Of a DNA stretch of 62,323 bases, positions 21,753 through 53,045 are shown piece by piece (positions within the stretch are counted from its first letter, which is position 1; every line of letters begins with the position of its first letter). A model generated the notes under the pieces. It made no database searches and was not told where the DNA came from. It worked only from the letters and a program-made list of their open reading frames with translations. Location: positions 1 through 62,323 of the forward strand of contig JARQWU010000032.1 of the NCBI GenBank assembly GCA_040182905.1. Reading direction: 5' to 3'. This DNA is from Barthelona sp. PAP020 (lineage: Eukaryota). Position numbers and translations under genes: made by a program.

Positions 21753-24515
21753 ATGAAAAATTATTCAGACGAAACTGTAACAAATGCTGTTGGTCGTGTA
21801 TTACCAAAATATATTGATGGTTATGGTGAGGTAAGACCTTTTAAAGGGGCCTTTGCTGTTGAACCTCGCACTGATGTTGTTAGACCCAGTTGCCAAGTTA
21901 GATTTGACAAGCCTGGTGATTGCAAGATTGTTGAAAATTTGGAACAAGCAATGGATCTCTGTGGTTTGGATAATGGAATGACTATAAGTTATCACCATCA
22001 TTTGCGTAATGGAGATGCTGTTTCCAATTTAATTTTTGATATTATTGCCAAGAAAGACGTCAAGGATATTGAATTGGCCCCTTCATCCGTTCATCCCATT
22101 CAAAAGCCTATGATTCCCTTAATTAAAAATGGCAATGTAACAAAGATTCACACTGGAACAAATGGACCTGTTGGTAAATACTGTTCTGAGGGTAACTTAA
22201 AGGATGTTGTCATTGTGAGATCTCACGGAGGCCGTGTTAGAGCCATTCAAGACGGTGATATTAATATTGATATTGCTGTTATTGCTGCTTCTGCTTGTGA
22301 TCCCTGTGGTAATTGTACTGGTATCATTGGAAAGTCGGCTTGTGGTCCTCTTGCTTATGCTGAAGCTGATTCACGTTGGGCTAAAAAGGTTATTGTTGTT
22401 ACTGACAATTTGGTTCCATTCCCATGTACACCTCTTTCAATTAGCGGAACCAATGTTGATTACATTGTTGTTGTTGATTCCATTGGTGATCCTAAAAAAA
22501 TTGCCTCATCTACTGTTGTTCTTGCCAAGTCTGAACCTGGTCTAAGTCTTGCAAAGACTGCTGCTAAAGTTATTGCACATTCTGGTGTTATGGTTGATGG
22601 TTTTTCATTCCAAGCTGGTGCTGGTGGTGCTTCTTTGACTTCAGTCTTTTACCTCGGAGAAGAAATGAGAAAAGCTGGTGTTACAGCTGGATGGGCAAAT
22701 GGTGGTACTACAAAGGTTATTGTTGATTTGTTTAAAGAAGGATTGGTCGATAAGTTGACTACTTGTCAAGCTTTTGATATTCCTTCGATCGCTTCCATGT
22801 ATGATGATATTCAACATCATGTTGAAAGTAGCATTGATCAATATGCTAATCCTTATAATGGACATTGTGTTGTTCATAACCTTGATTGTGTTGTACTTGG
22901 AGGTACTGAAGTTGATGTTGACTTTAATGTTAATGTCAATACTCACTCAGATGGATATCTTCTTCATAATACCGGTGGACATCAAGATACTGCTGCTGGC
23001 GCCAAATTAACAATCATTACTGCTCCTGTCGCTCGTGGTAATAACCCCATTATTGTTCCTCGTGTTACTTCCGTCACCACCCCTGGTGAATGTGTTGATG
23101 TTGTTGTTACTGATGCTGGTATTGCCATTAATCCCAATAGAAAAGATCTTATTGAAGCTCTTTCTAATTCTCCTCTTGCCGACCAAATTAAGGATATTCA
23201 TGCTCTCCATGAAGAAGGTTGTCGTCGTGCTGGACGTGTTCCTTCAGCTCCTGAAACTTTAGATCACATTATTGGTGTTATTGAATGGCGTGATGGTACT
23301 GTTCTTGATGTTGTTCGTCAAGTCGCCAATCCCATTCCTGATGGAATCAAACTTAAATCCGATTGTCTTGTTGAAGTTGAGGAAGCGGATAAGAACAGTG
23401 TTGATGTTATTTTATATGATACTGCTCCTGTTGTTCCTGTTGATGAAATGAAAGCACTTGCAATGGAAATGCTTGAATTTTATGGTGCCAAGAATCTTCA
23501 TGTCATGATTAAGGATAATGTTTCAGAACGTTGGACTCTTCAATCTCGTCTTGAATATGCAATCAAAACTGCTGTTGGTTCTGACAAATGTTATTTAGCC
23601 CCTCTCTGTGAAGATGCTGAAAATCGTGTTCATAGACCCAAAGAAGCTCTTCGTCGTTCTATGTTGTATATTCCTGGCAGTTCTGCTTATATGATGGCCA
23701 AGGCTGATGGTGGTGCTGATTGTGTCATTTACGACATGGAAGATGCTGTTGGTTTGCCACAAAAACCTGAATGTCGTGTTCTTGTTCGTAATGCCCTTCG
23801 TGCTGTTCCATTTGGAAAAACTGAAAGACATATTCGTATTAATCAACATCAACTTGGTGTCGATGACATCCTTGATGTCGTTAAAAATGCCCCTCTTGAT
23901 GTTGTTTGGATTCCAAAGGTTGAAGATCCCATTGAATTTAAGAAGCAAGTTGAACTTATTAAATCTGTTGCTTTTGATCAAGATCATCCCCCTTATGTTG
24001 TTCCTCTCATCGAATCTGCCCTTGGTGTTGAACGTACCTTCGAAATTGCTACCGTTGATCAAGAATCTGTGATCGGTTTGTCCATGGGTTTGGAAGATTA
24101 TACCAAGGATATTGGCGCTGTTCGTACCAAGTCTGATCATGAATCTGAATGGGCTCAACAGCGTGTCAACAATTGTGCTGCTGCTTTCCAACTTCAGTCT
24201 TACGATTCTGTTTTCTCTGATTTCAATGATAATGAAGGTCTTATTGCTTCAGTTAAGCGTTGTAAAGGTCTTGGTTTTGTTGGAAAGAGATTAATTCATC
24301 CTAATCAAGTTAAGCCTTGTAATGCTGCTTTCTTACCTGAAAAGTCTGAATTGGATTATGCTCTCAAAGTTTCTGCTGCCTTCAAGGGTGCATCTGGAAA
24401 TGCTGTTGCCTTAGGAAAGAAGATGATTGATCGTCCAGTTTATCAAAGAGCTCTTCATGTTATCAAGTTGGCTCTTCAAGGAGGAATGATTGAAGGTAGT
24501 ATGGAAGATTATTAA
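21753..24515 (+). CDS. Trifunctional citrate lyase fusion: CitF (alpha, CoA/ACP-transferase) - CitD-like (gamma, acyl carrier) - CitE (beta, citryl-CoA lyase)
   Basis: CitF motifs NAVGR, GMTISYHHHLRNGD, RSHGGR, FQAGAGG, GGHQDTAAGA and WRDGTVLDVV. An ~85-aa CitD-like segment GIKLKSDCLVEV...MIKDNVSERWTLQSRLE. CitE motifs RRSMLYIPG, DMEDAV, IRIN, IPKVE, IES, GLEDY and IHPNQV. One uninterrupted ORF; the first ATG is at 21753. Confidence 0.9.
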   Translation: MKNYSDETVTNAVGRVLPKYIDGYGEVRPFKGAFAVEPRTDVVRPSCQVRFDKPGDCKIVENLEQAMDLCGLDNGMTISYHHHLRNGDAVSNLIFDIIAKKDVKDIELAPSSVHPIQKPMIPLIKNGNVTKIHTGTNGPVGKYCSEGNLKDVVIVRSHGGRVRAIQDGDINIDIAVIAASACDPCGNCTGIIGKSACGPLAYAEADSRWAKKVIVVTDNLVPFPCTPLSISGTNVDYIVVVDSIGDPKKIASSTVVLAKSEPGLSLAKTAAKVIAHSGVMVDGFSFQAGAGGASLTSVFYLGEEMRKAGVTAGWANGGTTKVIVDLFKEGLVDKLTTCQAFDIPSIASMYDDIQHHVESSIDQYANPYNGHCVVHNLDCVVLGGTEVDVDFNVNVNTHSDGYLLHNTGGHQDTAAGAKLTIITAPVARGNNPIIVPRVTSVTTPGECVDVVVTDAGIAINPNRKDLIEALSNSPLADQIKDIHALHEEGCRRAGRVPSAPETLDHIIGVIEWRDGTVLDVVRQVANPIPDGIKLKSDCLVEVEEADKNSVDVILYDTAPVVPVDEMKALAMEMLEFYGAKNLHVMIKDNVSERWTLQSRLEYAIKTAVGSDKCYLAPLCEDAENRVHRPKEALRRSMLYIPGSSAYMMAKADGGADCVIYDMEDAVGLPQKPECRVLVRNALRAVPFGKTERHIRINQHQLGVDDILDVVKNAPLDVVWIPKVEDPIEFKKQVELIKSVAFDQDHPPYVVPLIESALGVERTFEIATVDQESVIGLSMGLEDYTKDIGAVRTKSDHESEWAQQRVNNCAAAFQLQSYDSVFSDFNDNEGLIASVKRCKGLGFVGKRLIHPNQVKPCNAAFLPEKSELDYALKVSAAFKGASGNAVALGKKMIDRPVYQRALHVIKLALQGGMIEGSMEDY

Positions 24516-24837
24516 TTTTGTGTTTTTGTCAATTAGTTTTGATATATATTTCATGTAAATATTTTTTTTTGGTTTTTTTTTTTTCATCATTTTACTTTAA
24601 ATTATTGAATAAACGGTGAACAAATGGTGAAGACAGGTGTTATAAAACACTTTTTAAAAGTAAATCTCCCAAAAGAATGATATTTTAAAGAAATGGAGAT
24701 TTGTGTTTAAATTTGGAAAACAACAGCCATAAATATAAACTTCCTTCACTTTTGAAAAATTTGTTGGTGTATTGTTGAATAAAAGGATTTTGATTGAAAT
24801 AATTGAAAAAAAAATATTGCCGGCATTTTCTTTTATT

Positions 24838-26535
24838 ATGAATTTTCCCTTAAATTATGAAAGAGTTCCATTTAGATTAGGAACTCGACGTATTGAAAGT
24901 TTTCATAAGCCATTGTTTTTGCCAATTTCAATGAAAAATGGTGAAATATTTGAAAACTCATATTCTTGGTTGAATGAAAGTGAAAATTATGACAAATCTG
25001 TTGATGATACTGAATCTATTGACAACCAAATATATAACAGTTATGAGCGAACATCTGTTGCTAATGAGCAAAAGAATGAATCAATTCTTAATTCAATTTC
25101 TTCACCAAATACTCGTACTTTTTCCAGCGCTTTTCCTCAAATAAATAAGGAAAAGCATGAACCAGAACTAATAAATTATTTTTTAAAACAACCTGTGTTT
25201 GCTTCTCCTGTATCTCCCATTATTAGTGTTAAGGATAACAGTCATATTGAAGAATTTACAAATATTCCTGATCAAAAACAATACGAATCTTTTACACCTG
25301 AAATTACTGTTGACAAAAGTCGAAACAAAAGTTCAAGAAATTCAATTTTGCACACAAATAAATCAAACCCAAATAACTCAGTTGTAAAGGATAAGAAAGA
25401 ATTAAAAGAAACAAAAGAAGATGAGTTGTTTTCAAATGAGCAGATGATATCATTTGGTGGTGGTTTAAGTGATGATTTAGACATAGATTATAAAGCTCTT
25501 GAAGATAATGAAAGAATAGTTCCAGAAGAAAAGGAACAAGAAAACGAGACCTTAAACAATTCTGAAATAGAGGAATTTTTGACCAATTTAAAGGCAAAAA
25601 ATATTGATAATAATAAAATAATCAAAGAAGAGACTAGTTTGAAAAAGAAAAAAACGAAACTCCCAACTAAAAAGGAAAAATTTCCATCAAAAAAAGGAAA
25701 ATCTCCAGCAAAAAAGAAAACACCCAAAAATAGAGCCACAAATCAGTCAACTGCATCAACAACTGAGAACACACCAGAATCTGACAGTTTTTCGGATTCT
25801 GAACAACTGGTAAATAACGGTGATGATTCAGAAGTGGTATTTGCAAAACCAAAGAATGGATCTGCCCGTAACAGACCTTTTCCAGATCGAAGAAACAAAG
25901 GTGAAAGAATAATCGCCATTGGATACGATCTCTACTATTGTGATAGGGATGGAAATCTATTTCTTCAAAAAAAAGCAGGTGAAATGACACCAGACAAAGA
26001 AACTATTGAGGAACGTCGAAAGACACCTGTTTCACCTTCAATTATTTATAAACATCTGCTGGAAAGTCAAAGCAGTAAGCAAGCCTCAAAACCATTAAAA
26101 ATTGCAAAAGTGTTCAATTTTGAGAACAAAAAATGGGAAGAAAAGCAACTTGTTGTTCCCAATAGAGACTTATTATATAAACCTTTGACAAGTGCAGAAG
26201 ATGGACTTCTTGTGAGTCGAAAGACTTCAAGTAAATTGTCCAACATCCAGATTGAAACAGGAATACTTCTTATTGAACCGGGAAATCACACTTCCTTTTC
26301 AAACAGTCAGAATAACCATTTAAACTTTTATATTTTGCGTGGTGAAGCATTAATACAATTGGGAGCAGAGATGAAAAAGAATGCGGAAGTTGTTGAAGAT
26401 GTTACCCAACTGCAAATACTTCCAGCATACGTTAATTGTACAATTGAAATACCGCCTCACAACTACTATTCAATTGTTAATGTGAGCAAAACAAACAAAC
26501 TTAAGATACTCTACCATATTGTTCTTGATAAATGA
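24838..26535 (+). CDS. Centromere protein C (CENP-C/Mif2)-like
   Basis: Disordered Lys-rich middle, a CENP-C-motif-like SARNRPFPDRRNKGERII, and a C-terminal Mif2-type cupin (ETGILLIEPG...NSQNNHLNFYILRG...IEIPPHNYYSIVN...LKILY). The first ATG is at 24838. Confidence 0.7.
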   Translation: MNFPLNYERVPFRLGTRRIESFHKPLFLPISMKNGEIFENSYSWLNESENYDKSVDDTESIDNQIYNSYERTSVANEQKNESILNSISSPNTRTFSSAFPQINKEKHEPELINYFLKQPVFASPVSPIISVKDNSHIEEFTNIPDQKQYESFTPEITVDKSRNKSSRNSILHTNKSNPNNSVVKDKKELKETKEDELFSNEQMISFGGGLSDDLDIDYKALEDNERIVPEEKEQENETLNNSEIEEFLTNLKAKNIDNNKIIKEETSLKKKKTKLPTKKEKFPSKKGKSPAKKKTPKNRATNQSTASTTENTPESDSFSDSEQLVNNGDDSEVVFAKPKNGSARNRPFPDRRNKGERIIAIGYDLYYCDRDGNLFLQKKAGEMTPDKETIEERRKTPVSPSIIYKHLLESQSSKQASKPLKIAKVFNFENKKWEEKQLVVPNRDLLYKPLTSAEDGLLVSRKTSSKLSNIQIETGILLIEPGNHTSFSNSQNNHLNFYILRGEALIQLGAEMKKNAEVVEDVTQLQILPAYVNCTIEIPPHNYYSIVNVSKTNKLKILYHIVLDK

Positions 26536-30420: not shown

Positions 30421-31389
30421 TCAAACCCAATTGTAGGATTCATTTTTGGAAAAACAAACATTTTCAAACAATTCTATGGGTTGTTTCTTTTTAAACACTT
30501 CTGTATCTTCAGCATAATGGACAAATATGCTACCAGCGAATGGAATAGAGTTGATAGGTATTGATTCATAATAGCTTTGCTTTCTAGGAACTATTAATAG
30601 AAACTCTTTGGTGAAGATAACATTATATGATGGTATTTTCTCAACATTCTCTAAAGAATAAATATCAATCAAAGGATTATTGATATCTTCGTAAATAACA
30701 TCTAAAAATGGCTTGTAATAATCTCTAAATGGTAAATCTAACTGTTTCATAGCTTCTAAATACAATTCAAAAATTTCTTCAAAATTTAATGATGATATTG
30801 AAACACATTTGTGTTTAAAATTAAAAATAGAAATTTCAAAAACCCTTTCTTCTTGAAATGATGTGCGAGCAATTAAATCTAAAGGCAATTCTGGTAACAT
30901 GTCTCCAAAAGGTAATGGTAAAACTTGCATGTGTCTGTGTGGTTGTGAAGCTCCAGAATTTCTTCCAATATTTATAAAAGTGAAACAATTATTTCTTTTT
31001 GTGACCTCAAACATTAAATATAATTCTTTATAATCTAAGGGTAAGAATTGGGGTATAAATTTATGAGTCACCATTAAACCATGTCCTTCAACCGCTGGAT
31101 ATTTATTCAATGTCAAATAATAATCCTCGTTTAATGTTTCAAGATACAATTCAGTATGACTATCAGTGAATGGATCTTGAATTTTTTGATGCATCCATTT
31201 TAATTCATTCTCTTTTGAGTATAAACCAGGAACAGCAACTCTTAAACTCAAATAGACTTCACTTTCTTCACACCATTTTAAAACAGACACATCACTTCGA
31301 AGTGGAATAAGTTGTGCTTTTTCTAAAGCTTGAATTGACTTTTGCTTTAAAGCCATAATAATATTATTCAGATTCATTAGTATTGTCAT
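30421..31389 (-). CDS. Ap4A phosphorylase / ATP adenylyltransferase (Apa1/Apa2 family)
   Basis: DPF, LNKYPAVEGHGLMVT..F.PQ..PL, SGASQPHRHMQ (HxHxQ) and SYNVIFT....IVPR...INS..FAG motifs. Confidence 0.88.
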   Translation of the reverse strand: MTILMNLNNIIMALKQKSIQALEKAQLIPLRSDVSVLKWCEESEVYLSLRVAVPGLYSKENELKWMHQKIQDPFTDSHTELYLETLNEDYYLTLNKYPAVEGHGLMVTHKFIPQFLPLDYKELYLMFEVTKRNNCFTFINIGRNSGASQPHRHMQVLPLPFGDMLPELPLDLIARTSFQEERVFEISIFNFKHKCVSISSLNFEEIFELYLEAMKQLDLPFRDYYKPFLDVIYEDINNPLIDIYSLENVEKIPSYNVIFTKEFLLIVPRKQSYYESIPINSIPFAGSIFVHYAEDTEVFKKKQPIELFENVCFSKNESYNWV

Positions 31390-50618: not shown

Positions 50619-50930
50619 AGCATACATATTTTTCGAATTGTGGGAACCAGCAAAAATTTCAATTTTATTTTTTAAATTCAACAAATGTTGCTCATTTTTT
50701 GTCCAAGAGTACAAATATTTATTTGTACAAAAGAAAACGACATTTTTTTTAACAGTGGTAGTTTCTCCCTGTAAAATTTTTTTTTAAATTTGCCTTAAGA
50801 ACTTCTATTTGCTACTGTATTACATTTTCTGAGCTTTGTTTGGTTATTAATAAAAAGGGAAAAGGGGAAAAGAAATTTGTCTTTTTTGGGATGTTTTACG
50901 AAATCCCTTTTTTTTATTATTATAGTTTTT

Positions 50931-53045
50931 ATGGAAAATCAGCAGCAGAAAAATGTTGTTTTAGACGATATTACTTCACACAGTACAAAAAAAAACTCAA
51001 AAATTGTTTTGGTGGCCTTCTTTTTGATGGCTTGCTTTTCAATGTATGGTGAAATTATGTTATTACCTTCATTGCCTACTATCGTTAGAGATCCTAAATT
51101 TAGTTCTGGTGCAAATTATGTTGCCTGGATATTAAGCATTTATCTTTTAGTTGGTGCTGTTGTAACTCCAATTGCTGGTGCTTTGGGAGATAAATATGGA
51201 AAGAAAAGGATGTTGATGTTGTGCATGTCATTTTTTGCCATTGCTCAATTTGGTTCGGCATTTGCATGGAGCATGCCTTCTTTAATTTTTTTCAGAGGTA
51301 TTCAAGGCCTTGGTTTAGGACAATTTCCTTTGGCAATGGGTATTATTCGAGATACATTTCCCTCTGACATCATTCCAATTGCTTTGGGAATTGTAAGCAG
51401 TTCTTTTTCAATTGGTGTTACTATTGGTTTCCTTGGAGGCGGTTGGGTCTCTGAAAACTTTGATTGGCAGATTAATTTCTTCTTTTCTGGTTTTGGTCTT
51501 CTTTTCTTGTTAGTGTTCATTTATTTTTATGTTGATGCACCTTTTGTACCAAATAATATGAAATTGGATGTATTTGGATGTTTCATCATAGGTTTTAGTG
51601 TGTTGTCATTAATGTTTGGACTTACTGAAGCTAAAACAAAGGAATTTACTGAATTATCAGTTTGGGGATGTATCTTATTGGCAATTATTATATTTTTTTG
51701 GTTTGTTGTGCATTCATTAAGAGTAGAAAATCCATTAATTCCTAAGAAGCTTATTGAAATTCCTGAAGTTATTATTGTTACCGTTTCTGCTTTTGTTATT
51801 GGTTTTTGTATGTTTTTAGTATACCAAACAGTGCCATTCTTTATTTCTTTACCTATCAATTCATATTATGTTCCTGGTGTTGGTAACGTAACTATTGATC
51901 CTCCTTTGGGTTATCATGGAGTTACTTCTACCCTTACATCAGGTCTTTGGATGAGTGCAGGTGCATTATCTCAACTCCCAATGGCGGCTTTTGCTGGGAA
52001 ATATGCAAGAAAGTTTGGACCCATGAGAATGATGTCTTTCGGTTTTATTGGAAGCGCACTTGTCACATTCCTTATGTTTTATTGGAATAGAACTACTGTT
52101 TCAATAATTGTCACTCAAATTCTCTTTGGTGCAACAATTGCTCCTATTCAAGTGTTGTTGATGACATGTTTAGCTGATTATGCACCTCAAGAAATTTTTG
52201 GTACTGCTACTGGTTTTAATTCTTTGTTGAGAAGTATTGGTTCAACGTTGGGTCCTGTTGTTTCTGAATTGATTACTTCCAAATATTTGAGAGTTTTCAA
52301 TACTCCTGCTGGAACATTTTTTATGAATGAACCTGAGGGATACACATATTGTTGGTTATTAGCTGGTATTGTTAGTTTTATTTCTGGAACTATTCTGTTT
52401 ATTATCAGAAACAAAGCCGGAACATCATCTATCTCTTCTGAAAATGAAGAAGATCCATCAACTGTTGATAGAGAGTTGGCTGAATCAAAAACACCTGTAA
52501 ATTTGGAACTTTGTGAGAACGAAACTTCAAAATTGGAATTTGAAATTTCAAATCTGGTGGAAGAAAGTCAACATACTCAAATTAGTTCATTATTGCAAAA
52601 AGCCTTTGAAAAACATGAAGGAAACTTATGTGAAAGTGAAATTGTTTGTGAATTGAGAAAGAAAGATGCAATTGTGTTTGAACGTATTGTTATTGTTGAT
52701 GATATTATTGTTGGTTATGGATGTGTTGTTAAAGTTACCGTTGATTCTGAGACTGACAAAGTTTATGCTTTGGGACCATTGGCTATTTTGCCAAATTATC
52801 AAAGATTGGGTTTGGGAACAAAGATTGTTGAATCTTTGTTGACTTCTTTGAAAGAAATTGAGGCAAATGGTTGTGTTGTATTGGGTGAGTTTGATTTTTA
52901 CAATAGATTTGGTTTTGAAAGAGATGAAGAAGTAACTTCAGCTTTTTCTCAAGATCATTTTTTGACAGTCAAATTTGGAAATGAAGATTTTAAAGGTCTT
53001 GTTGAATATGATGAGCTTTTTTACAAAAGTGAAATTGATTCTTGA
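50931..53045 (+). CDS. MFS drug:H+ antiporter (14-TM, DHA2/EmrB-QacA-like) fused to a C-terminal YhbS-like GNAT acetyltransferase
   Basis: MFS motif A (GALGDKYGKKRML), RGIQGLG, LGGGWVSENFDWQ, DVFG and ENPLIP. The C-terminal ~165 aa contains ALGPLAILPNYQRLGLGTKIV (acetyl-CoA motif A) and GCVVLGEFDFYNRFGF. The first ATG is at 50931. Confidence 0.85.
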   Translation: MENQQQKNVVLDDITSHSTKKNSKIVLVAFFLMACFSMYGEIMLLPSLPTIVRDPKFSSGANYVAWILSIYLLVGAVVTPIAGALGDKYGKKRMLMLCMSFFAIAQFGSAFAWSMPSLIFFRGIQGLGLGQFPLAMGIIRDTFPSDIIPIALGIVSSSFSIGVTIGFLGGGWVSENFDWQINFFFSGFGLLFLLVFIYFYVDAPFVPNNMKLDVFGCFIIGFSVLSLMFGLTEAKTKEFTELSVWGCILLAIIIFFWFVVHSLRVENPLIPKKLIEIPEVIIVTVSAFVIGFCMFLVYQTVPFFISLPINSYYVPGVGNVTIDPPLGYHGVTSTLTSGLWMSAGALSQLPMAAFAGKYARKFGPMRMMSFGFIGSALVTFLMFYWNRTTVSIIVTQILFGATIAPIQVLLMTCLADYAPQEIFGTATGFNSLLRSIGSTLGPVVSELITSKYLRVFNTPAGTFFMNEPEGYTYCWLLAGIVSFISGTILFIIRNKAGTSSISSENEEDPSTVDRELAESKTPVNLELCENETSKLEFEISNLVEESQHTQISSLLQKAFEKHEGNLCESEIVCELRKKDAIVFERIVIVDDIIVGYGCVVKVTVDSETDKVYALGPLAILPNYQRLGLGTKIVESLLTSLKEIEANGCVVLGEFDFYNRFGFERDEEVTSAFSQDHFLTVKFGNEDFKGLVEYDELFYKSEIDS

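What the first reader, a model, noticed from the sequence alone, without database searches (positions are those of the whole stretch)
23325..23580. The CitD-like acyl-carrier domain appears to lack the prosthetic-group serine, suggesting a free-CoA-dependent lyase
Seen: the domain reads G-I-K-L-K-S-D where canonical CitD has G-T-L-E-S14-(S/G)-D. Lys therefore occupies the Ser14 position (a Ser remains one residue later), and the conserved DKGA reads DNVS. No citC, citG or citX gene is in this window. Established: Ser14 carries the phosphoribosyl-dephospho-CoA group made by CitG and attached by CitX, which CitC acetylates; CitF and CitE can also act on free acetyl-CoA and citryl-CoA. Inference: the ACP may be a vestigial structural linker, with the fusion cycling free acetyl-CoA and needing no maturation genes. 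That would make it a self-contained, easily transferred module.
Basis: partly seen in the sequence, partly recalled or inferred. Interest (0 to 1): 0.75.

Follow-up and report, generated by a model that had tools for sequence, protein, structure and literature searches.

The report
Carrier-free citrate-type lyase in anaerobic protists
A gene in a eukaryotic microbe fuses all three subunits of the bacterial citrate-splitting enzyme into one protein whose carrier part has lysine where the cofactor-holding serine should be, so it likely runs on free coenzyme A, and it may split homocitrate (a possible lysine breakdown product) rather than citrate.

Summary
Observation confirmed. Window 21753-24515 encodes a 920-aa CitF-CitD-CitE fusion in a eukaryotic contig. 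Annotated E. coli CitD puts Ser14 on Lys535 and Gly15 on Ser536. K-S-D is a family motif, not local decay: the Ser14 column is Lys/Arg in 110 of 112 and 43 of 46 relatives, while the next column varies. citG, citX and true citC occur in 3 of 50 bacterial carrier genomes (control coaE 48 of 50), there as a separate canonical operon. The same fusion occurs in Barthelona, Kipferlia, Paratrimastix and three Archamoebae; only 3 of 20 fusions keep x-S-D. Free-CoA turnover is therefore likely (about 0.8), but untested; this organism's genome was not available. The substrate is open. The lyase domain is closest to bacterial enzymes that co-occur with a homoisocitrate-type dehydrogenase (120 of 128 genomes) and sit in lysine-breakdown operons; the CitF domain belongs to another clade. 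Odds: homocitrate 0.45, citrate 0.4. The scan noted the bacterial serine loss and operon before on other DNA.

The parts
21753..24515 (+). Single ORF, 920 aa, CitF-CitD-like-CitE fusion, no stop or intron needed
   Evidence: same architecture in P0002, P0003, P0006, P0129, P0130, P0134
21753..23327 (+). CitF-type CoA-transferase domain (residues 1-525)
   Evidence: TIGR01584 519.9 bits, cut-off 501.45; PDB 2hj0 E 1.6e-128
23328..23588 (+). CitD-like carrier-fold domain (residues 526-612) without the attachment serine
   Evidence: PF06857; alignment to annotated CitD; model and fold match to 5vit_C
23355..23357 (+). Lys535, at the position of CitD Ser14
   Evidence: Lys or Arg in 110 of 112 and 43 of 46 relatives
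23358..23360 (+). Ser536, at CitD position 15 (Gly or Ser in canonical CitD); not the attachment site
23514..23525 (+). D-N-V-S in place of the D-x-G-A turn that prokaryotic relatives keep
23589..23648 (+). Variable linker between the CitD-like and CitE domains (residues 613-632)
   Evidence: 0-50% identity to other fusions
23649..24482 (+). CitE-type acyl-CoA lyase domain (residues 633-910); D661, E663, D664, R695, E754, D782 shared with canonical CitE
   Evidence: PF03328; TIGR01588 180.7 bits, below cut-off 443.4
24087..24098 (+). G-L-E-D motif (779-782), shared with the R-S-D bacterial lyases; Leu780 seen in 0 of 6 canonical CitE

Best explanation
The gene encodes one chain holding a CitF CoA-transferase, a CitD-fold domain that has lysine in place of the attachment serine, and a CitE lyase, and this chain likely cleaves a citrate-type acid using free acetyl-CoA as a recycled carrier, with homocitrate narrowly the most likely substrate. 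Shown: the architecture, the register, the family-wide K/R-x-D motif, and the absence of citC/citG/citX from most bacterial carriers. Inferred mechanism: CitF moves CoA from acetyl-CoA to the tricarboxylate and releases acetate; the acyl-CoA passes to CitE, which splits it to a 2-oxoacid and acetyl-CoA; no ATP and no protein modification are used. The CitD-fold domain would be a spacer or scaffold; its conserved basic residue may hold a phosphate of CoA non-covalently (speculative). Inferred substrate: homocitrate to 2-oxoglutarate plus acetate as the last step of lysine breakdown by a reversed aminoadipate route (0.45), citrate to oxaloacetate plus acetate (0.4), other (0.15). The confidence below is for the free-CoA mechanism.
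For: Register. Motif: Ser14 column R104 K6 of 112; K30 R13 of 46, with column 15 G19 S18 N3 A2 Q1 R1; 3 of 20 protist-type fusions keep x-S-D. Maturation genes: CitG 3 of 50, CitX 3 of 50, strong CitC 3 of 50, control CoaE 48 of 50; those three hits lie in separate citE-F-XG-C operons, two with an E-S-S-D citD in view; CitG in 13 of 128 carrier genomes among 301 Bacteroidales, 12 of the 13 with a second stand-alone CitE match; no CitC or CitXG BLAST hit in 80 metagenome loci. Characterised CitE-like enzymes use free CoA esters (PMC3832036). For homocitrate: the window CitE is 39-47% identical to R-S-D lyases, 33-34% to canonical and shares L780, G788, S798, N807 with them; R-S-D lyase and the S-P-I-V dehydrogenase co-occur (both 120, lyase only 8, dehydrogenase only 1, neither 172); a nine-gene same-strand run with two aconitase-family genes, an aminoadipate-semialdehyde-type dehydrogenase and both saccharopine enzymes is seen in 3 of 6 fetched regions; the Stygiella relative carries a domain 67% identical to the small aconitase subunit of such a locus; Trimastix marina lists all these partner types.
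Against: No enzyme of this subfamily has been assayed in the papers searched. The organism's genome could not be searched for citC/citG/citX or pathway partners. Most carrier genomes are MAGs with no completeness given. That canonical CitF and CitE accept free CoA esters is recalled; the source paper was not held. One of 80 loci (L068) has S-S-D. Against homocitrate: the window CitF falls in a protist-rich clade apart from the 78 lysine-operon CitFs; the grouping of protist CitE with R-S-D CitE has support 0.32 only; the Paratrimastix rows found list only ordinary aconitase and NADP-isocitrate dehydrogenase beside the fusion; the dehydrogenase is below every NCBIfam cut-off and its best PDB hit is a putative isocitrate dehydrogenase.
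Confidence: 0.8

Rival explanations
1. Same free-CoA mechanism, but the protist enzyme splits citrate to oxaloacetate and acetate, for example as the end of glutamate breakdown through isocitrate.
For: CitF passes the citF equivalog cut-off and is outside the lysine-operon clade; other non-canonical CitFs sit beside a citrate-synthase-like lyase gene. Paratrimastix has the fusion, two ordinary aconitases and NADP-isocitrate dehydrogenase, and no homoaconitase row appeared for it.
Against: CitE is far below the citE cut-off, shares residues with the R-S-D type and none exclusively with canonical CitE; Stygiella fusion to an operon aconitase subunit; Trimastix partner set. The supplement tables are subsets of the proteome.
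Confidence: 0.4
2. Ser536 is a shifted attachment site and the protein is an ordinary holo citrate lyase matured by unlinked citC, citG and citX.
For: Ser536 column is Ser in 109 of 112 closest relatives; eukaryotic genes are not linked, and the genome was not searchable.
Against: Ungapped register with G10 and D16; column 15 varies freely in the wider family; 47 of 50 carriers with that serine have no CitG, the enzyme that makes the cofactor precursor; 17 of 20 protist-type fusions lack x-S-D.
Confidence: 0.06
3. The enzyme works in the synthetic direction, making homocitrate or citrate from acetyl-CoA and a 2-oxoacid for lysine or glutamate synthesis.
For: CitE-type reactions are reversible (recalled); two Cloacimonadota carriers have neither lysA nor homocitrate synthase by these searches; the two-aconitase step mirrors fungal lysine synthesis (PMC3556520 abstract).
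Against: The operon dehydrogenase best matches the oxidative piperideine-6-carboxylate dehydrogenase model; all three genomes with the full operon have lysA above cut-off; a phagotrophic protist has little need (inference).
Confidence: 0.12

Closest known systems
ATP-independent citrate (pro-3S)-lyase CitDEF with CitC, CitG, CitX (EC 4.1.3.6; E. coli, Klebsiella, lactic acid bacteria)
   Same: All three subunit types present; CitF above equivalog cut-off; CitE catalytic residues kept.
   Different: One chain in order F-D-E, in a eukaryote (PMC3832036 calls the enzyme prokaryote-only); Ser14 replaced by Lys; CitD and CitE below their cut-offs; bacterial relatives mostly lack citC/G/X.
CitF plus CitD-CitE fusion of Ignavibacterium album (IALB_1146/1147), annotated as citrate lyase (PMC3362086)
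   Same: CitD-CitE fusion beside citF; the closest relatives of the window's D-E half are of this kind, including Ignavibacteriales.
   Different: Not assayed; the passages read do not mention the missing serine; window adds CitF to the chain and its CitF is from another clade.
Free-CoA CitE-superfamily lyases (malyl-CoA lyase, CLYBL, citramalyl-CoA lyase)
   Same: Same fold and use of free CoA esters.
   Different: No fused CitF or CitD-fold domain; 30-33% identity.
Malonate decarboxylase carrier MdcC (5vit_C)
   Same: Best low-rmsd fold match of the domain (Z 6.5, rmsd 2.5, 72 aligned); same prosthetic group on Ser25.
   Different: MdcC is modified by MdcB/MdcG; the window domain has Lys at that place; Z under 8 is not decisive.
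Upper alpha-aminoadipate pathway of fungi (homocitrate synthase, aconitase plus homoaconitase, homoisocitrate dehydrogenase; PMC3556520)
   Same: Bacterial relatives of the D-E half travel with two dehydratases and a homoisocitrate-type dehydrogenase.
   Different: A CitF/CitE pair stands where the synthase would be, next to lysine-catabolic genes; partners are not shown for the window's organism.

Membership tests
Canonical citrate lyase CitDEF (EC 4.1.3.6) | Alpha subunit CitF | tested here: met
   TIGR01584 519.9 bits, cut-off 501.45
Canonical citrate lyase CitDEF (EC 4.1.3.6) | Beta subunit within the citE equivalog | tested here: not met
   TIGR01588 180.7 bits, cut-off 443.4; CitE-like fold and catalytic residues present
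Canonical citrate lyase CitDEF (EC 4.1.3.6) | Carrier subunit with the attachment serine (Ser14) | tested here: not met
   Lys535 in the Ser14 column
Canonical citrate lyase CitDEF (EC 4.1.3.6) | CitD/MdcC carrier fold | tested here: met
   PF06857 27 bits over cut-off 25.1 for the isolated domain; same secondary structure as a bacterial relative; fold match to 5vit_C moderate, Z 6.5
Canonical citrate lyase CitDEF (EC 4.1.3.6) | citC, citG, citX in the same genome | not testable with these tools
   No genome held; found in 3 of 50 bacterial carrier genomes
Canonical citrate lyase CitDEF (EC 4.1.3.6) | Cleaves citrate to oxaloacetate and acetate | not testable with these tools
   Needs an assay
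Uncharacterised K/R-x-D (carrier-free) CitDEF subfamily | Lys or Arg at CitD position 14, Asp at 16 | tested here: met
   K535-S-D537
Uncharacterised K/R-x-D (carrier-free) CitDEF subfamily | CitF and CitE group with non-canonical, not canonical, homologs | tested here: met
   Trees rooted on 3 canonical sequences
Lysine-operon (putative homocitrate) lyase: R-S-D CitD-CitE plus GGWQN-type CitF | CitE of the R-S-D type | tested here: inconclusive
   Highest identity and four shared residues, but sister grouping has support 0.32
Lysine-operon (putative homocitrate) lyase: R-S-D CitD-CitE plus GGWQN-type CitF | CitF in the GGWQN clade | tested here: not met
   Window has GGHQD and falls in another clade, support 1.0
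Lysine-operon (putative homocitrate) lyase: R-S-D CitD-CitE plus GGWQN-type CitF | Partner dehydrogenase, dehydratases and saccharopine enzymes in the genome | not testable with these tools
   None among 29 ORFs of the window; no genome
ATP-citrate lyase (database name of the Pelomyxa homolog P0006) | ATP-grasp, CoA-ligase and citrate-synthase-like domains | tested here: not met
   No such Pfam hit in P0001 or listed for P0006; the ACL studied in the Pelomyxa paper is another protein, Pelo_5333

The most novel reading that the evidence does not exclude
Anaerobic protists from three eukaryotic groups carry a one-chain, ATP-free, cofactor-free homocitrate lyase that ends an undescribed oxygen-independent route from lysine (saccharopine, aminoadipate, 2-oxoadipate plus CO2, homoisocitrate, homocitrate) to 2-oxoglutarate and acetate, shared with about 40% of sampled Bacteroidales; the former carrier domain now grips free CoA through the lysine that replaced its serine.
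Probability: 0.35. Interest if true: 0.85.

Novelty: new variant of a known kind. Interest (0 to 1): 0.68.

Why it matters
ATP-independent citrate lyase is described as prokaryote-only and as needing three maturation enzymes. A single-gene version in anaerobic protists that needs none can be expressed alone and assayed at once, which tests the carrier-free mechanism for a subfamily found in 128 of 301 sampled Bacteroidales genomes and annotated as ordinary citrate lyase. If homocitrate is the substrate, it names the missing enzyme of a new lysine fermentation route; if citrate, it adds an unrecognised step to the energy metabolism of metamonads and Archamoebae and means such genes should not be read as ATP-citrate lyase.

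Tried and rejected
Whole-genome search: no genome is held. Expression: no RNA holder listed, no evidence either way. Profile search of 1.8 billion representatives with the D domain alone gave 4 weak hits, 2 of them low-complexity-looking, not followed. Foldseek of the D model gave no match at E 0.001; Foldseek of the bacterial D-E model showed only CitE-like chains; no solved CitD by sequence. ESM Atlas returned CitD-CitE clusters at 0.88, a lead only. Paper searches: 'citrate lyase'+'Barthelona' 0; 'homocitrate lyase' 0; searches listed nothing on a carrier-free CitDEF or on this protist fusion. Main texts of PMC11316075, PMC10711303, PMC4989108, PMC8136499, PMC5874029 had no passage on it; supplements of PMC11316075 (one file unreadable) and PMC8136499 had no hit; those of PMC5874029 could not be reached and may bear on Kipferlia's partner genes; bioRxiv supplements are closed. 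Rejected: recent bacterial contamination or transfer (GC3 0.21 like the host, flanked by eukaryotic genes, groups with Barthelona and Kipferlia). Rejected: my first reading that the Pelomyxa paper had misnamed this fusion; its ACL is another protein. Eleven weak PF08218 hits (E about 1e-4) were not counted as CitC. The E. coli citE row was out of frame after about 75 residues and was dropped. No complex prediction was run.
Full report
1. What is there. The finding lies inside one ORF, 21753-24515 (+), 920 aa. Pfam and NCBIfam place CitF at residues 1-525, a weak CitD-like domain at about 526-612 and a CitE-like lyase at 633-910. The window is eukaryotic: 29 other ORFs include a kinesin, a cyclin, Rer1, a U-box/TPR protein, a FYVE protein and a ciliary protein, and none hit a citC, citG or citX family. 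The gene's third-position GC (0.21) equals that of its neighbours, and its codon bias is the strongest of 25 ORFs measured, which fits a native, probably well expressed gene (inference). No whole genome is held. The organism was not identified; its closest named relative by this protein is Barthelona sp. PCE (63%).

2. The register. Five annotated CitD proteins from plasmid records and two from canonical Bacteroidales operons were aligned with the domain. E. coli G10-T-L-E-S14-G15-D16 lies ungapped on G531-I-K-L-K535-S536-D537. All seven canonical rows have E-S-(S/G)-D. That Ser14 bears the cofactor is recalled for CitD; for the homologous MdcC it is Ser25 (PMC5534430, passages). A model of the window domain (64-row alignment, pLDDT 83) has the same three strands and two helices as a bacterial relative. 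Its best low-rmsd match among 48,161 chains is MdcC (Z 6.5, rmsd 2.5, tied with an unrelated chain); the range begins Leu534 = residue 24. Only range ends are given, so this supports but does not prove Lys535 = Ser25.

3. The motif belongs to a family. Searching with residues 520-920 found 3411 shorter relatives; the best 120 are nearly all CitD-CitE fusions of about 400 aa from Bacteroidota, Ignavibacteria, Calditrichota and others. Of 128 stored proteins 112 were parsed: the Ser14 column held Arg 104, Lys 6, Gly 1, gap 1; the next column Ser 109. In 80 genome loci the motif was R-S-D in 75, K-S-D in 4 and S-S-D in 1 (four rows read by eye). That alone could not exclude a shifted serine. But 80 metagenome loci chosen by the CitF half gave 46 CitD-like rows: column 14 Lys 30, Arg 13, Glu 1, gap 2; column 15 Gly 19, Ser 18, Asn 3, Ala 2, Gln 1, Arg 1, gap 2; column 16 Asp 44. 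So the basic residue is kept and the serine is not. None of these 80 loci had a BLAST hit to CitC or CitX-CitG.

4. Maturation genes. Fifty of the 80 genomes (those with long contigs) were searched: CitG 3, CitX 3, strong CitC 3, all in the same three genomes; the control CoaE was found in 48. In those three the genes lie in a separate citE-citF-citXG-citC run, with an E-S-S-D citD visible in two. In an even sample of 301 Bacteroidales genomes, 128 had the fusion (127 at E 1e-100 or better plus one split at a contig end), 19 had CitG, 13 had both; 12 of the 13 show a second, stand-alone CitE match, 9 of them within about 3.3 kb of citG (read). Most genomes are MAGs and no completeness was reported.

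5. Protist distribution. Full F-D-E fusions are named in Barthelona, Kipferlia, Paratrimastix, Pelomyxa, Mastigella and Mastigamoeba; Stygiella has a permuted chain (aconitase small subunit-D-E-F); Anaeramoeba has CitF as a separate protein. Of 20 fusions, 3 have K-S-D, 2 R-C-D and 15 lack the motif (three of these have a Ser in a stretch of uncertain register). The D domain is 16-52% identical across them, against 52-66% for F and 42-63% for E. In FastTree trees rooted on three canonical sequences, protist CitF domains form one clade with ten unnamed CitFs (support 1.0) and protist CitE domains form one clade (0.97). Window, Barthelona and Kipferlia group together in both. Archamoebae fall in two subclades, one with Paratrimastix, which would fit transfer between protists or old paralogy; this was not tested.

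6. Substrate. Around the bacterial R-S-D lyases, citF is adjacent in 77 of 80 loci; aconitase-family genes occur in 30, a dehydrogenase in 29, an HD protein in 26, PrpD in 10, and lysine-catabolic genes in 4-6 (many contigs are short). The dehydrogenase best matches homoisocitrate dehydrogenase models, below cut-off, and has S-P-I-V in 29 of 29 where isocitrate dehydrogenases have S-L-N-V; that fungal homoisocitrate dehydrogenases share S-P-I-V is recalled. Its best PDB hit is a putative NAD-isocitrate dehydrogenase, then Thermus homoisocitrate dehydrogenase. It is in 47 of 50 carrier genomes, and among 301 genomes both 120, lyase only 8, dehydrogenase only 1, neither 172 (kinship not corrected). 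The lysine-ketoglutarate-reductase-like gene is in 123 of 128 carriers and 45 of 173 others. Three of six fetched regions, including Carboxylicivirga linearis, show nine genes on one strand: D-E, F, dehydrogenase, HD, two aconitases, aldehyde dehydrogenase, and both saccharopine enzymes. Fungi need two aconitase-family enzymes between homocitrate and homoisocitrate (PMC3556520, abstract). All three genomes have lysA over cut-off (20 of 50 overall), so the run is more likely catabolic. I reached this reading before querying the scan's notes, which hold it already for bacteria.

7. Does it carry over to the window? Only in part. For: the CitE half is closest to the R-S-D type (39-47% against 33-34%) and shares L780, G788, S798 and N807 with it, none seen in 6 canonical CitE; Stygiella's extra domain is 67% identical to an aconitase small subunit from such a locus; the Trimastix marina rows list a citrate lyase gene, two homoaconitase-like genes, a LeuB-like dehydrogenase, LKR/SDH and ALDH7, but also ordinary aconitase, IDH and a synthase (PMC10703272 supplements). 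Against: the CitF half is not in the clade of the 78 operon-type CitFs; the CitE sister grouping is weak (0.32); the Paratrimastix rows show only ordinary aconitase and NADP-IDH. Hence 0.45 homocitrate, 0.4 citrate.

8. What is in print. PMC3832036 (passages) calls the ATP-independent enzyme prokaryote-only and notes that characterised CitE-like enzymes use free CoA esters. PMC3362086 (passages) notes the D-E fusion in Ignavibacterium as plain citrate lyase. NCBI names the Pelomyxa fusion ATP-citrate lyase, but the ACL in that paper's table is another protein. Ten full-text searches listed no paper on a carrier-free CitDEF, a homocitrate lyase or this fusion; most subscription papers are not in the library.

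9. Verdict. It works like citrate lyase but fails two defining features of that family. New variant of a known kind; interest 0.68.

Noticed in passing
L122-L162, L001-L089: A 170-200 aa HD-domain protein travels with carrier-free CitF systems of three kinds (R-S-D, K-G-D, and CitF plus a citrate-synthase-like lyase with no CitD), so it may serve CitF or free-CoA turnover.
   Followed up: partly
L068:830-2041: A Desulfuromusa MAG has S-S-D in an otherwise R-S-D-type fusion, the only such case in 80 loci; its genome was not searched for citG.
   Followed up: no
L090, L103, L136, L137, L141: Stand-alone CitD genes with K/R-x-D show that loss of the serine does not depend on fusion to CitE.
   Followed up: partly
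L023, L038, L080: Two citF paralogs in tandem after one D-E gene; in L011, L015, L017 and L030 the single CitF has a different loop, hinting at two substrate specificities.
   Followed up: no
L087:11717-12862; G010, G015, G019: A weak lysA-like PLP decarboxylase (about 380 aa) lies near the S-P-I-V dehydrogenase gene in some Bacteroidales.
   Followed up: no
P0007 (Stygiella): Permuted chain: aconitase small subunit, CitD-like, CitE, CitF, mirroring bacterial gene order as in L048.
   Followed up: yes
P0006 (KAH3756870.1): NCBI names the Pelomyxa fusion ATP-citrate lyase although its listed domains are CitF and CitE.
   Followed up: yes
window 50877-53045 (+): MFS transporter fused to a C-terminal GNAT acetyltransferase domain.
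   Followed up: no
window 30421-31389 (-): Ap4A phosphorylase / ATP adenylyltransferase gene.
   Followed up: no
window 24772-26535 (+): Gene next to the fusion has a weak CENP-C cupin match (PF11699, below cut-off).
   Followed up: no
L170:4794-5702: The citE copy on this E. coli plasmid record is out of frame after about 75 codons and is not annotated.
   Followed up: no
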